A stretch of 63,997 bases of DNA, filler included, from an uncultured Methanosarcinales archaeon (GTDB taxonomy: Archaea; Nanobdellota; Nanobdellia; Woesearchaeales; CAZKBD01): NCBI GenBank assembly GCA_964550945.1. It is 16 parts of 16 records of this genome, joined end to end, with 100 filler letters (N's around TTAATTAATTAA, not from the genome) between each part and the next. Parts side by side here need not be neighbours in the genome. Positions count along the whole stretch, not along the records: positions 60,828 to 63,997 come from CAZKBD010000137.1; 15 more parts are not named here. One strand, given 5' to 3'. The notes beneath the pieces were generated by a model. It ran no database searches and was not told the origin of the DNA. It saw nothing but the letters and a program-made list of their open reading frames with translations. Of the stretch, positions 58,166-63,928 are shown in pieces (positions within the stretch are counted from its first letter, which is position 1; every line of letters starts with the position of its first letter). A program made the position numbers and the translations under genes.

Positions 58166-59093
58166 GAGACTGTTACCTTAACTTACTCGTTGAATAGCAC
58201 ATTATCTGCGGACGTTTTGCAACGTCTCTGCCAAAAATCTTTTAAATCAGCTTCACTTTAAAGATTTAATCTTGGAGGCAGTTGCTTCATAACATTGGGA
58301 ATGCTTGTTCAAGCGTTGAAGATGCTTCCAAGAACTTCTTTTCATAAAACATCTTCTTGAGATGTTTGCGCAGCATGAATAATTGTGCAAACTTGTTTGC
58401 ACTTTCTATATTTTCAAAATTGTACCTGAATTTTTCAAGGTAGGAATCTATCTCAGAATTAAGGCTCTCAGCTGGATTGTTTGTAATCCAGTAAAACTTC
58501 TTCTTGTATATGAATCCCTTTCCATTAATGCCAGCAATGACGCTTTTGCATTTCCTTCCCAGAAATTTAGCTGAACTGTCATAAGCATGAAGCCCATCTC
58601 TTATCAAGATGTCAACTTCCCTGCCTATTTTACGTCGAGCTTCTATAAAAAGCTTTTTTGCAGAATCGAAGTCTCTGAATTGGGTTACAATGCAGTGAAT
58701 AAGATTGCCAAAGCAATCTTTTATACTCCACCAATAATGCCATTCTCCTCCAACTTTTACATATTTTTCATCTGCGTGGCATATCAAAACATCACTTGTG
58801 CATTGGTAAGGTGGAAGGATTATTCCATCAGCAAACTTATTTGTCCATTCGCAAACTGTCTTGTAACTAACGCTTGCCCTGAAGAGCAAGAACAGCAATA
58901 TTGACACTATTCTTGATGGAAGAAAAATATGCAGAATAATTGCAAATCTTATTACAATTATAGGGTTCCTGTATCTTTTAAGATAGCCATTTTTTGCCAT
59001 GTTGAAGCACCTCTTTTAGTGCCCAAACTCACTTTCTTTGGAGAAAATTGTGCTTTGAGAATAAATATGTTTTGAGATTAAGGTAACAGTGTC
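58166..59093 (-). mobile_element. IS6-family insertion sequence, 928 bp
   Basis: 16-bp TIRs GAGACTGTTACCTTAA (58166-58181) and TTAAGGTAACAGTGTC (59078-59093), similar to the IS26-type GGCACTGTTG end; no target duplication seen. Confidence 0.85.
58287..59000 (-). CDS. IS6-family DDE transposase
   Basis: HADEKYVKVGG, RDGLHAY, NNPAESLNS. Confidence 0.88.
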   Translation of the reverse strand: MAKNGYLKRYRNPIIVIRFAIILHIFLPSRIVSILLFLLFRASVSYKTVCEWTNKFADGIILPPYQCTSDVLICHADEKYVKVGGEWHYWWSIKDCFGNLIHCIVTQFRDFDSAKKLFIEARRKIGREVDILIRDGLHAYDSSAKFLGRKCKSVIAGINGKGFIYKKKFYWITNNPAESLNSEIDSYLEKFRYNFENIESANKFAQLFMLRKHLKKMFYEKKFLEASSTLEQAFPML

Positions 59094-60727: not shown

Positions 60728-61176
60728 NNNNNNNNNNNNNNNNNNNNNNNNNNNNNNNNNNNNNNNNNNNNTTAATTAATTAANNNNNNNNNNNNNNNNN
60801 NNNNNNNNNNNNNNNNNNNNNNNNNNNCAGCAGCCTCACGGCTGCTCGGGTTTATGTTTCTATCGAGATTCGGGACAGAGCCTGATGGCGCGGCTCTGTC
60901 CCGAAAGCGGTTACGGGCATCAGGCCGAGCCTTTGCCATTGCGGGAACAAGGGCGTTGTTGGGGGTTGCCCCCTGCGGGGTGCCGAGTAGGACTTCCCAG
61001 AGAAGCCCGTCGAGCCGCCAAATGGAACTACAACTGCATCAAAAAGAAAAATTCAAAATGTCGTAGAACATATCCGCTTAAACGAAGTTTTGTCCGACCT
61101 CGTGAGTGAGCCCCCAAAAAATCCTCTCTCTGGGGCGAAGGCTGTCCAAGAACAATAGAATACGGAGCCCAAAAAC

Positions 61177-61440
61177 CTATTTGTATATCCTATCATGATG
61201 GTCAAATTCCTCAAAAGTAACTTTCTTAAGATTATCATCAACTGAAAACAAAAGAACAAAACTTTTGTCTATGTGGACGCTCTTGAGGTGTTGTAATGGG
61301 CTTCTGAGATTCTTATAATGCTGTGGATTTCGTATTACTTCTGCAATCTTATTATGGATAATCTCTAGTTGTTTTTTGTTCTTTTTCCCTATTTTCTCAA
61401 ATATCTTGTCCAAGTGATCTCTAATTTCAAAGGAGTGCAT
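61177..61440 (-). CDS. RelE/ParE-family toxin
   Basis: NPQHYKNLR, VHIDKSFVL, DHHDRIY. Confidence 0.85.
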   Translation of the reverse strand: MHSFEIRDHLDKIFEKIGKKNKKQLEIIHNKIAEVIRNPQHYKNLRSPLQHLKSVHIDKSFVLLFSVDDNLKKVTFEEFDHHDRIYK

Positions 61441-61441
61441 T

Positions 61442-61684
61442 TTAATTCATACCATATCTTTTTCTGAAGTTCTCGAGAGTGCCTATCTTTATAGTTTTTT
61501 CTTTAGATATCTTCTCCATCTTCTGGATAAATTCAGGTTGCAATTCAGGCTCCAATAACCCCCCTCCACAACTTAAAACAACTTTTTCAATAGCTTCAGA
61601 CTTATCTTTAAGATTATACCTGGCCTTTACAATATTCAAGATTTGATTTGCATCTTTCGAAATGTTTACCATTGCTTGTACCAT
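61442..61684 (-). CDS. DUF2683-like antitoxin
   Basis: MVQAMVNI...ILNIVKARYNLKDKSEAI...EPEL; lies directly upstream of the toxin. Confidence 0.8.
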   Translation of the reverse strand: MVQAMVNISKDANQILNIVKARYNLKDKSEAIEKVVLSCGGGLLEPELQPEFIQKMEKISKEKTIKIGTLENFRKRYGMN

Positions 61685-62240
61685 ATATCTCACCAATACA
61701 CTATATATATCTCATATATATAAATGTATAGGTTTTTGGGCTCCGACTAAAGTAAAAGATTTCTTTGACAGCCGAAGCGACGAGCTTTGATGCGAGGAGC
61801 GACCGACCCGTTTAGCACATCGGAATTTAACGAAGTTTATTTTTCAGAGCGGAGGAATTTTGAGGCAACCCACAAAATTCCGACCTCGAAAAATAAATTT
61901 GGGAGAGCAGGGGAAAACGCTTGGCGTTTTAGGCGAAGCCGACCCTGCGAACCGTTAAATTCCTGTTAAGTTCGTTTCCCATACGCAAGTGTGGGAAACC
62001 TGCGTCCGCAGAGTTGTGTTTAAGTTCCAATCAATTCGAGCGTAGCGAGTGTATATGTGCGAAGCACGGGGGGAGTTCAGTCGTTCTATTAAATGAGCGA
62101 ATGCGATACGTCAAGAACAAGTATCAAGGGGACAATTTTAATTCACAGGGAATTTCGTTTATACAAATTTTCATCGGAATATTTAAATAGAAGTTATGCC
62201 TTGACTTATGATATATCACAGTTTAAGGGGGATTTCGCTA

Positions 62241-62468
62241 ATGACTAATACAAAACAAAAGATACTGGAATTTCTAAAAAAGGCAGATTGGCCTTCAACA
62301 ACAGAAGACATTGCCGCAGAAGTAAAAGTATCTTGGAATACAGCACAAGTGCATCTTCTAAAAATGGTTCACGAAGGAATTCTAAAATATAAGAAAGTCG
62401 GAAGACAAAACCAGTTCTGGTTAAATGAAGGATATGAAAAATACTTCAAACGGGGGGATAAAAAATGA
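62241..62468 (+). CDS. Small winged-HTH regulator
   Basis: KILEFLK...TTEDIA...SWNTAQVHL...KKVGR. Confidence 0.75.
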   Translation: MTNTKQKILEFLKKADWPSTTEDIAAEVKVSWNTAQVHLLKMVHEGILKYKKVGRQNQFWLNEGYEKYFKRGDKK

Positions 62469-63112
62469 AAAATTTATTTGTTGTGTGCGGTATAATATTT
62501 ATTCTATTAATTGGAGGCTGTTCAAATCAAACTGATACTTCTGATACAACTAAACCAATAACAAAAGATACTAAGGCATTAGTTGAAGAAAAATCAGTAC
62601 AAAAAGATGCAGAGCCTTCAATAATTCAAAGATCACAAGCAACAACAAAAACAACATCTGAATTAGCTTTAGTATTATCAGATTTGCCAGAAGGCTACAC
62701 AATAAAAGAAAGAACTCCCAGACTCAAGTCTGATGTGAGTAAAGAAGCAATCGATTTAGGATGGGAAGATGGTTATTATATCAGGTTTGCTCGTATAGGG
62801 GAAGATATTTTTGATGCTACAGTAATAGAGCAATTTATTTCGATTTATCCCATTAATGACGTTAAAAAAGTTTTAGATTTGCCAGAACAATCAAATGAGA
62901 ATGTTACTTACGAAGAATTACCCTCATCTGATTTAGGTGTTGAAAGCAAGGCTTATAGGATAACCTATATTGATGAATTTGGCACACAAGAAAGAGTTTA
63001 CCAGATAGAATTTTTCAAAAAGAATGTTTATCAAGAGATTGATATGTCCGGTACAGCAACGGATTATGAACTATTAAAGGAAATTGTCAAAAAATCTATT
63101 AAAAAGATTTAG
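62465..63112 (+). CDS. Putative lipoprotein
   Basis: LIGGC lipobox; SDLPEGY. Confidence 0.7.
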   Translation: MKNLFVVCGIIFILLIGGCSNQTDTSDTTKPITKDTKALVEEKSVQKDAEPSIIQRSQATTKTTSELALVLSDLPEGYTIKERTPRLKSDVSKEAIDLGWEDGYYIRFARIGEDIFDATVIEQFISIYPINDVKKVLDLPEQSNENVTYEELPSSDLGVESKAYRITYIDEFGTQERVYQIEFFKKNVYQEIDMSGTATDYELLKEIVKKSIKKI

Positions 63113-63121
63113 ATTTTATGA

Positions 63122-63928
63122 ATGTGGAATGTTATGAACCTAAAAAATATTGAAAATAATGCAAAATACATCTCTAATTTTAGATCCATACATTGTAGTG
63201 GGTTATCTGATTTATTTATGCCAGAATCAAAATTAATTCAGTTTGATTTGGTAGATATTTACAATAAATGGAATAATTATCTAGGGAAAAAAGATTTGTC
63301 TTTCTCCAGATTTTTAAGTATTTATCATAATGATTTATTGCTCACTTATGCATTAAAGGAAGCTATCTTGTCTTTAAATAAGCTTGATGTTGAAAAATGG
63401 AAGTATAAAGAACAATTAAAAGATTGGGAAAAAATGAACCTTATGATTAAGAGCCATGAAGCCGTGTACCATCTAGTTAATTTAACAGTACTTTTACGAA
63501 TTAACTACGAGCGATTTATCCTTTGCTTACAAGAGTTATTTCAATGTAATAAGGGAAAAAAATTTGAAGCAAAAAGGAAAGCAATAATTTATAAAATTAA
63601 TGAGAAAAAGATAAATCAAAATCTTATTAAAGTGGTTGAATCTATTGATATTGGTAACATCAAAGAGTATCGTGAGAAAATAATACATAAAAGCGGCTTA
63701 TATTTTCAAGAGTTTTTTCCATCTGCCAAAAGTAATTTAGATTTTGATGTGTTCTTGAGCGAGATTAGGAACGAAATTGTTAAATTTTATATCCTAATAC
63801 AAAGATTTATTTATTGTTCCATTGGCGAAAAGCCAAAATTTAACTTAAACTATGGTCATATATCGAAGGAGGAGTTTAATAAAAGACTTAAAGAAAGTAA
63901 ATCTAAACTGTCTGAAGAAGTGAAATAA
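63122..63928 (+). CDS. Hypothetical protein with a HEPN-like R-x4-H motif
   Basis: All-helical composition with IKEYREKIIH. Confidence 0.55.
   Translation: MWNVMNLKNIENNAKYISNFRSIHCSGLSDLFMPESKLIQFDLVDIYNKWNNYLGKKDLSFSRFLSIYHNDLLLTYALKEAILSLNKLDVEKWKYKEQLKDWEKMNLMIKSHEAVYHLVNLTVLLRINYERFILCLQELFQCNKGKKFEAKRKAIIYKINEKKINQNLIKVVESIDIGNIKEYREKIIHKSGLYFQEFFPSAKSNLDFDVFLSEIRNEIVKFYILIQRFIYCSIGEKPKFNLNYGHISKEEFNKRLKESKSKLSEEVK

What the first reader, a model, noticed from the sequence alone, without database searches (positions are those of the whole stretch)
60828..62134. Large self-folding non-coding element that loops out an intact toxin-antitoxin operon
Seen: in an AT-rich window, two GC-rich non-coding arms flank a RelE/DUF2683 operon and are complementary in nested order. 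The pairs are CGGAGCCCAAAAACCTAT 61163-61180 / 61728-61745 (18 bp perfect, containing the toxin stop codon), GGCTGTC 61140-61146 / GACAGCC 61767-61773, CCTCGT 61098-61103 / GCGAGG 61792-61797, GCTTAAACG 61076-61084 / CGTTTAGC 61809-61816, and GGAACT-ACAACT 61024-61035 / AGTTGT-AGTTCC 62012-62028. Each arm also has its own multi-branch domains, e.g. GGAATTTAACG 61822-61832 / 61953-61963 enclosing several hairpins. No transposase, integrase or RT is inside, and I could not find group I/II intron or RNase P motifs. Inference: a ~750-nt scaffold with a cargo loop, comparable to the ORF loop of introns. It could be an ssDNA-folded non-autonomous mobile element or a large ncRNA stabilised by TA addiction. 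The left end is cut by the contig edge.
Basis: partly seen in the sequence, partly recalled or inferred. Interest (0 to 1): 0.85.

Follow-up and report, generated by a model that had tools for sequence, protein, structure and literature searches.

The report
Toxin-antitoxin genes inside DNA recombination hairpin
In small uncultured archaea, a folded-DNA site that marks where gene cassettes are swapped sometimes carries a whole toxin-antitoxin gene pair in the tip of its hairpin, which probably makes the cassette hard to lose.

Summary
The inner pairings are real, but this is not one ~750-nt RNA-like scaffold. It is a decayed piece of an integron-like cassette array in a DPANN archaeon, in five parts: an IS5-type end, a dispersed hairpin, a folded-DNA recombination site holding a RelE/DUF2683 operon in its loop (61069-61816), a second site fused to it (61817-61968), and a cassette trailer.

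Homologous sites occur empty, with a GAA-triloop tip (11 loci), or filled. All 7 complete filled sites hold a TA-like pair, of four kinds, flanked by GNA at 10/10 left and 8/9 right junctions. The window's cargo is inverted relative to homologs.

C-GNA-G hairpins number 59 on one strand versus 2 on the other (27 sites), which favours ssDNA over RNA. Sites show the integron circular-cassette signature (11/12). One filled site is tandemly duplicated at the crossover. A dif-like 11-6-11 site lies upstream of one XerA-like paralogue group (17/28 versus 0/27); the three such proteins scanned lack the IntI insertion.

The scan noted this cassette system before on other DNA, and genes in attC loops in phages. 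The TA-in-tip variant with an empty allele is new here. Activity is inferred, and this copy looks damaged.

The parts
60828..60882 (-). End of an IS5-family insertion sequence (terminal repeat 60869-60882; transposase lies beyond the contig edge). Not part of the hairpin system.
   Evidence: Contig L208, 99.86% identical to this contig, continues into a DDE_Tnp_1 / IS5-type ORF with a matching repeat at its other end; depth 5-10x above the unique sequence here
60892..60905 (+). Second, inverted copy of the IS terminal repeat, 9 nt from the first
   Evidence: other contigs branch at 60892
60961..61057 (+). Remnant of a separate dispersed hairpin ('module A'), here the end of the preceding, gene-less cassette; its 5' arm is lost
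   Evidence: 11 of 61 genomes match the left arm, mostly this piece; contexts; twice in the G015 array
61058..61068 (+). 11-bp recombinase-binding arm; inferred crossover between 61068 and 61069 (AA|C; G|TT on the other strand)
   Evidence: The same arm is followed by three different sequences exactly after AAC in the window and two G015 copies, one of them the dif-like site upstream of the XerA-like gene
61069..61136 (+). 5' arm of the TA-loaded attC-like site (2-nt bulge 61071-61072, stem from 61073, GAAGTT box, CCTCGTG level)
   Evidence: alignment A1 with filled and empty homologues; folds
61137..61180 (+). Left end of the TA module: GAA triloop remnant (61137-61139), module-end helix (61140-61147), inner inverted repeat (61163-61180)
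61177..61440 (-). RelE/ParE-family toxin, 87 aa
   Evidence: PF05016 23.3 bits (cut-off 23), TIGR00053 E 1e-18 below cut-off
61442..61684 (-). DUF2683 putative antitoxin, 80 aa from ATG
   Evidence: PF10884 31.4 bits; antitoxin role inferred from gene order
61728..61776 (+). Right end of the TA module: inner inverted repeat (61728-61745), module-end helix (61767-61773), GAA (61774-61776)
61777..61816 (+). 3' arm of the TA-loaded site, truncated: its closing TGTTA core is missing
   Evidence: comparison with complete filled sites L205, L211, L218
61817..61968 (+). Second, unloaded attC-like site; lacks its ATTG-N4-TA left arm and is fused to the first
   Evidence: 26 of 61 genomes match the right arm; loose ends at 61817 in three runs carry the normal left arm, and one contig bridges 60953-61846
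61969..62139 (+). Non-coding cassette trailer with small GNA hairpins, shared in modules among many cassettes
62208..63928 (+). Genes of the cassette that follows the second site: winged-HTH, lipoprotein-like and unknown ORFs
   Evidence: an 80%-identical HTH cassette lies on own contig C19; cassette membership inferred

Best explanation
The core of the finding is an attC-like recombination site of a XerA-paralogue, integron-like cassette system of DPANN archaea (Woesearchaeales by inference from homologue titles), whose terminal loop has been filled with a toxin-antitoxin operon. Shown by sequence comparison: (1) the site family, with a TAACA / 2-nt bulge / stem ... TGTTA core; (2) empty and filled alleles that are collinear except for a module sitting in the GNA triloop tip; (3) at least four kinds of TA-like pair in that slot, in both orientations; (4) cassette boundaries at AA|C. 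Inferred: the window + strand folds as ssDNA and, with the two bulged bases flipped out, presents an 11-6-11 dif-like duplex that the XerA paralogue recombines with the double-stranded dif-like site upstream of its own gene. A TA pair in the loop travels with the site, kills or stalls cells that lose the cassette or delete the hairpin, and, as a 550-700 nt loop, should restrict folding to moments when the DNA is single-stranded. The window's own copy is probably no longer recombinogenic, because two sites are fused with loss of a core and an arm.
For: Empty tips in 11 of 24 loci inspected, 9 of 11 with C-GAA-G. Seven complete filled sites, all with a TA-like pair; six were retrieved by arm matches (G044/L218 first by the right arm), not by cargo (families). 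GNA at 10 of 10 left and 8 of 9 right junction lines. Compensatory changes across the cargo in the inner repeat and module-end helix and in the basal stem. C-GNA-G hairpins 59 on window +, 2 on -, 6 shuffled, in 27 sites; classical attC bottom strands also have GAA tips (PMC5027507, passage). Right flank of a site matches the NEXT site's left arm better than its own in 11 of 12 pairs, 4/4 in 7 versus 0, and in 4 of 4 complete filled sites tested. In L205 a filled site occurs twice, identical for 120 of 120 available bases from TAAC with no upstream identity. A dif-like 11-6-11 site lies within 300 nt upstream of 17 of 28 genes of one XerA-like group versus 0 of 27 of the other; family sites within 1.4 kb upstream in 8 of 30 versus 1 of 28.
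Against: No experiment. The own genome holds only a 215-aa tyrosine recombinase, not the full XerA paralogue. The window's site lacks its closing core. Cognate arm pairs were the most stable in only 4 of 7 filled sites, tied in 1, beaten in 2. The stems were selected for pairing and the attI pattern was written from group-B examples, so both lean towards the model (the shared ATTG-N4 arm was not in that pattern). Inverted-repeat covariation can come from arm homogenisation rather than selection. The tree is the quick one. Most DUF2683 TA homologues have no bracket (7 of 76 at score 24 or more versus 11.6% shuffled), so the link is a property of a rare site variant. No excision or inversion joint of the TA was seen in four runs of contigs.
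Confidence: 0.78

Rival explanations
1. The TA module is itself a non-autonomous transposon (ends GGCTGTCC / GGACAGCC, 3-bp GNA target duplication), or a hairpin-ended circle that repeatedly inserts into GC-GNA-GC tips, parasitising the recombination sites as group IIC-attC introns do attC. This is compatible with the best explanation and differs on whether tip insertion is ongoing.
For: Filled = empty + module with GNA on both sides; host stems differ in L313/L314; an IS5-type element with a loosely similar terminal repeat is adjacent.
Against: All complete cases sit at the main tip of family sites, none in the many other GNA hairpins of the trailers. The two triplets differ in 5 of 7 complete sites, unlike a fresh duplication. 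The shared right flank GCGGAA suggests one ancestral insertion with later cargo swaps. Likeness to the IS repeat is a few bases only.
Confidence: 0.2
2. The hairpins are REP/MITE-like dispersed palindromes spread by a HUH or DDE transposase, and the TA pair merely lies between two inverted copies.
For: Modules are dispersed and mosaic; an IS200-like gene is next to the G040 site; IS-repeat-ended hairpins exist in relatives.
Against: The circular-cassette signature, the one-orientation link to the XerA paralogue and its dif-like site, and exact empty/filled collinearity are not expected from random palindromes.
Confidence: 0.08
3. A large structured non-coding RNA with an ORF loop, like a group I/II intron.
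For: Strong predicted RNA folding on both strands; 7 C-UNCG-G loops on the minus strand versus 0.8 shuffled.
Against: GNA triloops outnumber UNCG 59 to 7, and those UNCG loops are by-products of CC-GNA-GG; GNRA is not enriched. No Rfam match. The region is a composite whose outer helix is not conserved. The cargo can lie in either orientation.
Confidence: 0.04

Closest known systems
Integron attC sites and cassette arrays (IntI/attI/attC), including archaeal integrons (Ghaly et al. 2022, PMC9668308)
   Same: Folded single strand with AAC/GTT core, extrahelical bases, GAA-tipped variable terminal structure, crossover at G|TT, circular-cassette complementarity, array beside a divergent tyrosine recombinase gene, TA and restriction cargo.
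   Different: Recombinase matches XerA_Arch best and lacks the IntI insertion; a single 2-nt bulge next to the core instead of an unpaired central spacer plus L-box extrahelical bases; sites 76-186 nt, and 753-1092 nt when loaded, against 57-141 bp for attC (PMC5027507); TA inside the site instead of as its own cassette.
TA cassettes of Vibrio chromosomal integrons (Richard et al. 2024, PMC13108822, abstract only)
   Same: Promoter-bearing TA pairs that punish cassette excision.
   Different: There the TA is the gene of a cassette; here it sits in the loop of the recombination site, which may also close a cassette with another gene (L218) or none (L205).
Archaeal XerA/dif (Cortez et al. 2010, PMC2958812)
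   Same: 11-6-11 site geometry and a single XerA-type enzyme.
   Different: A paralogue group, not the top-scoring housekeeping XerA, is linked to the arrays, and one partner is a folded single strand. Phage CTX using XerCD on folded DNA is the recalled analogue, not checked here.
Group IIC-attC introns (PMC3001079, search listing only) and IS1111-attC elements (recalled)
   Same: Genetic cargo lodged inside a cassette recombination site.
   Different: Those encode their own RT or transposase; this module encodes only a TA pair and sits in the apical loop, leaving the core intact.

Membership tests
Integron (IntI/attC) | Tyrosine recombinase with the IntI-specific additional domain | tested here: not met
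   Three XerA-like proteins scanned (two array-linked): best NF040815; TIGR02249 188-194 bits (cut-off 265) in two stretches; across the two array-linked proteins the best stretches end at profile position 171 and begin at 238
Integron (IntI/attC) | Site is an imperfect palindrome with AAC/GTT core and crossover at G|TT | tested here: met
Integron (IntI/attC) | Unpaired central spacer of 5-6 nt, L-box extrahelical bases, length 57-141 bp | tested here: not met
   One 2-nt bulge (TC in 19 of 27) then a paired stem; 76-186 nt, loaded 753-1092 nt versus PMC5027507 passages
Integron (IntI/attC) | Cassette ends are complementary in the circular form | tested here: met
   11 of 12 pairs; 4 of 4 filled sites
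Integron (IntI/attC) | attI-like primary site beside the divergent recombinase gene | tested here: met
   dif-like 11-6-11 site in 17 of 28 versus 0 of 27; in relatives, not in this contig
Integron (IntI/attC) | Strand-selective recombination of the folded bottom strand | not testable with these tools
   only indirect: GNA triloop bias 59 to 2
XerA/dif chromosome-dimer resolution | Housekeeping XerA acting on one double-stranded dif | tested here: not met
   Only 1 real site near the 30 top-scoring XerA loci; link is to a paralogue group; the chromosomal dif was not located
Known structured RNA (Rfam 15) | Match to a covariance model at its gathering score | tested here: not met
Non-autonomous DDE transposon (MITE/composite) for the TA module | Terminal inverted repeats and an identical target duplication, varied targets | tested here: inconclusive
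   Inverted ends present; flanking GNA triplets identical in only 2 of 7 complete sites; all targets are site tips
Type II toxin-antitoxin system | Toxin inhibits growth and the partner neutralises it | not testable with these tools
   family matches and two-gene order only

The most novel reading that the evidence does not exclude
A selfish, enzyme-less TA module spreads by strand exchange between GNA-tipped DNA hairpins into the loop of folded recombination sites, turning the site itself into an addiction and rate-control device for an undescribed XerA-driven integron analogue. The nested 'Russian doll' stems of these sites would be the record of repeated tip insertion, with TA cargo swapped and flipped at an inner inverted repeat.
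Probability: 0.25. Interest if true: 0.85.

Novelty: new variant of a known kind. Interest (0 to 1): 0.66.

Why it matters
It shows that a structure-defined DNA recombination site can hold a whole operon in its loop and still appear at exact crossover junctions, five to ten times longer than any described attC. It offers a direct test of how TA systems stabilise cassette arrays, with natural empty, filled and inverted alleles of one site. It also supports, with independent counts, an integron-like system run by a XerA paralogue without the IntI domain, which bears on how integrons arose from Xer recombinases. Such sites are probably missed by attC models (inference; I did not run one).

Tried and rejected
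Rfam scan: nothing. One search was an uninformative two-genome pattern search. TA-first search: 78 loci fetched, 75 scored plus the window (3 partial matches dropped); brackets no commoner than shuffles. Left-arm pattern over 401 genomes: 28 matches versus 15 control; I took 5 as real by their sequence and opened 3 loci. Metagenome pattern: 30 loci, 6 family sites (3 new distinct elements plus 2 copies of the window's element and 1 duplicate), the rest chance in GC-rich genes. Viral contigs: one chance hit and two blanks. Class-wide left-arm search found only promoter-like matches outside the own genome, so filled sites are rare. First site finders were too strict or too noisy (in one search, 51 hits versus 69 reversed) and were not used for counts. 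No RNA holder listed; this is no evidence on expression. Contigs of four runs showed no TA inversion or excision joint; contigs cannot show absence. The record behind L208 could not be opened further, so the right end of the array and its recombinase gene are unseen. The careful tree did not finish. Rejected: one 750-nt scaffold; intron; housekeeping XerA as the linked enzyme.

Full report
Setting. The window is a string of contigs; the finding is the first 1.3 kb of own contig C137. The closest TA homologues come from records titled Woesearchaeota, so I infer a DPANN host. A named metagenome contig, L208, is 99.86% identical over 2,848 nt and runs further left. Its purF gene is 60.6% G+C and only 59% identical in protein to the own genome's, whose contigs over 5 kb stay under 39.3% G+C. 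C137 may therefore be misbinned or recently transferred; I cannot tell which.

Observation. The listed pairs exist and the arms around the TA fold with z -6 to -8. Rfam gives nothing. But the region is composite. 60828-60882 is the end of an IS5-family element. 60961-61057 is a separate dispersed hairpin.

The site family. The right arm has matches in 26 of 61 genomes of the order, own included. A finder for TAAC-A, two bulged bases, a 10-bp stem and a closing TGTTA gave 42 distinct sites against 10 in reversed sequence. Four look like chance. Unloaded sites are 76-186 nt. In 27 of them the bulge is TC in 19, the stem varies with pairs kept (partly by selection), and the left flank is ATTG-N4. 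C-GNA-G hairpins number 59 on the window + orientation, 2 on the other, 6 in shuffles; GNRA loops are not enriched. GNA triloops as stable DNA mini-hairpins is recalled knowledge. PMC5027507 (passages) states that most mobile-integron attC bottom strands have a GAA terminal loop and that attC sites are 57-141 bp.

Cassette logic. For 12 adjacent pairs, the four bases right of a site match the left arm of the next site better than its own in 11 and worse in none; 7 are perfect versus 0 (five of the 42 rows were dropped first, and only sites with a downstream neighbour count). This is what a circular cassette closing at AA|C predicts. The arm at 61058-61068 is followed by three different sequences exactly after AAC in the window and two G015 copies.

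Enzyme. The 30 top-scoring XerA loci had one real site nearby. A quick tree of 60 XerA-like proteins split them into two groups. In one, a dif-like 11-6-11 site lies about 90-190 nt upstream in 17 of 28 genes with enough DNA, against 0 of 27 in the other. Family sites lie within 1.4 kb upstream, in one orientation, in 8 of 30 versus 1 of 28. The pattern was written from examples of that group, but the ATTG-N4 arm it recovered was not part of it. The proteins scanned lack the IntI insertion, which PMC9668308 and PMC8138268 (passages) treat as defining. PMC2958812 (passages) gives the 11-6-11 geometry of dif and shows XerA can recombine alone. With its two bulged bases out, the folded site has the same geometry (inference). 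The own genome holds only a 215-aa recombinase.

The TA slot. Searches with the arms found complete loaded sites at own C65 (VapB-like + PIN), L205 (same), L313 (PIN pair), L025 (RHH + RelE), L211 (68-aa unknown + zinc-ribbon/antidote-like; TA role inferred) and L218 (DUF2683 + RelE); partial ones are L184, L314, L315, L317 and a second at C65 with an AbrB-like + RelE-like pair, named by eye. With the window, 7 of 7 complete sites carry a TA-like pair. Of 24 loci opened from a right-arm search (26 found; own and one unpublished left out), 11 are the empty form, 9 with a C-GAA-G tip. Empty L232 and filled L211 are collinear except for the module. GNA flanks the module in 10 of 10 left and 8 of 9 right junctions. 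The inner repeat and module-end helix show two-sided changes across 550-700 nt of cargo. Swapped-arm folding favoured the cognate pair in 4 of 7, tied in 1 and failed in 2. The other complete sites have the TA reading from the left arm; the window's is reversed, and its closest homologue L092 (89%) keeps after the toxin stop the flank that the window has on the promoter side, so the cargo has flipped at the inner repeat. Most DUF2683 pairs have no bracket: the slot belongs to the site, not to the TA family. Loaded sites are rare, about 6 of the 401 sampled genomes across several searches.

Loaded sites still act as cassette ends: 4 of 4 tested show the next-arm signature, and L205 holds a tandem copy identical from TAAC onward with different upstream arms. 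The window's copy is damaged: the loaded site lacks its closing core and the next site lacks its left arm. A contig bridging 60953-61846 and two metagenome contigs show the fusion is real.

How it likely works. Folding of the + strand during replication or transfer, XerA-paralogue exchange at AA|C with the dif-like site, and addiction by the TA pair are inferred. PMC13108822 (abstract) shows TA cassettes kill cells when excision is too frequent. PMC8946536 (passages) reports up to a 4-log drop for long terminal loops under replicative conditions but not with ssDNA delivery, which suggests the loaded site also excises rarely. How the module entered the tip is open: GNA on both sides fits loop-to-loop exchange or a 3-bp duplication, but one ancestral event with later cargo swaps fits as well.

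Novelty. Five literature searches showed, in listings and the passages read, no XerA-run cassette arrays in DPANN and no TA operon inside an attC loop. The library lacks most subscription journals and I read no supplements. Earlier scan notes describe the same cassette system on other DNA and genes in attC loops of Bacteroidota phages; none matched the TA unit by sequence. It works like an integron but fails two defining tests, so I class it as a new variant.

Noticed in passing
L208:1-2245 versus G000: A contig 99.86% identical to C137 continues into a 59% G+C IS and a 60.6% G+C purF, far outside the own genome's composition: misbinning of C137 or recent transfer of the array.
   Followed up: partly
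G000:C65:6400-10719: The own genome has a cassette array with two more TA pairs in inverted-repeat loops and a minimal 21-nt site; a different dispersed repeat has inserted into the right arm of one loaded site.
   Followed up: partly
window 60961-61057; L023, L024, L029, L031, L034, L036, L038, L039: 'Module A' is its own family of GC-rich dispersed hairpins, next to the XerA-like gene in G015 and G029 and in one case (L039) bounded by IS-like terminal repeats with an apparent 10-bp duplication.
   Followed up: partly
window 60869-60905: Two IS terminal repeats face each other 9 nt apart, like an IS dimer junction or a repeat-targeted insertion.
   Followed up: no
L101/L068, L098, L099: Other DUF2683 TA pairs sit as ordinary cassettes whose two ends are complementary to each other, a second way of bracketing.
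   Followed up: partly
L025, L289: Site stems are built of repeated CTC / GAG-CT levels nested up to three deep, as if grown by repeated insertion at the tip.
   Followed up: no
window 58287-59000: IS6-family (DDE_Tnp_IS240) transposase ORF on another contig of the window.
   Followed up: no
L025:784-1200 (minus orientation): An IS200-like gene (named by eye) lies next to the G040 loaded site.
   Followed up: no
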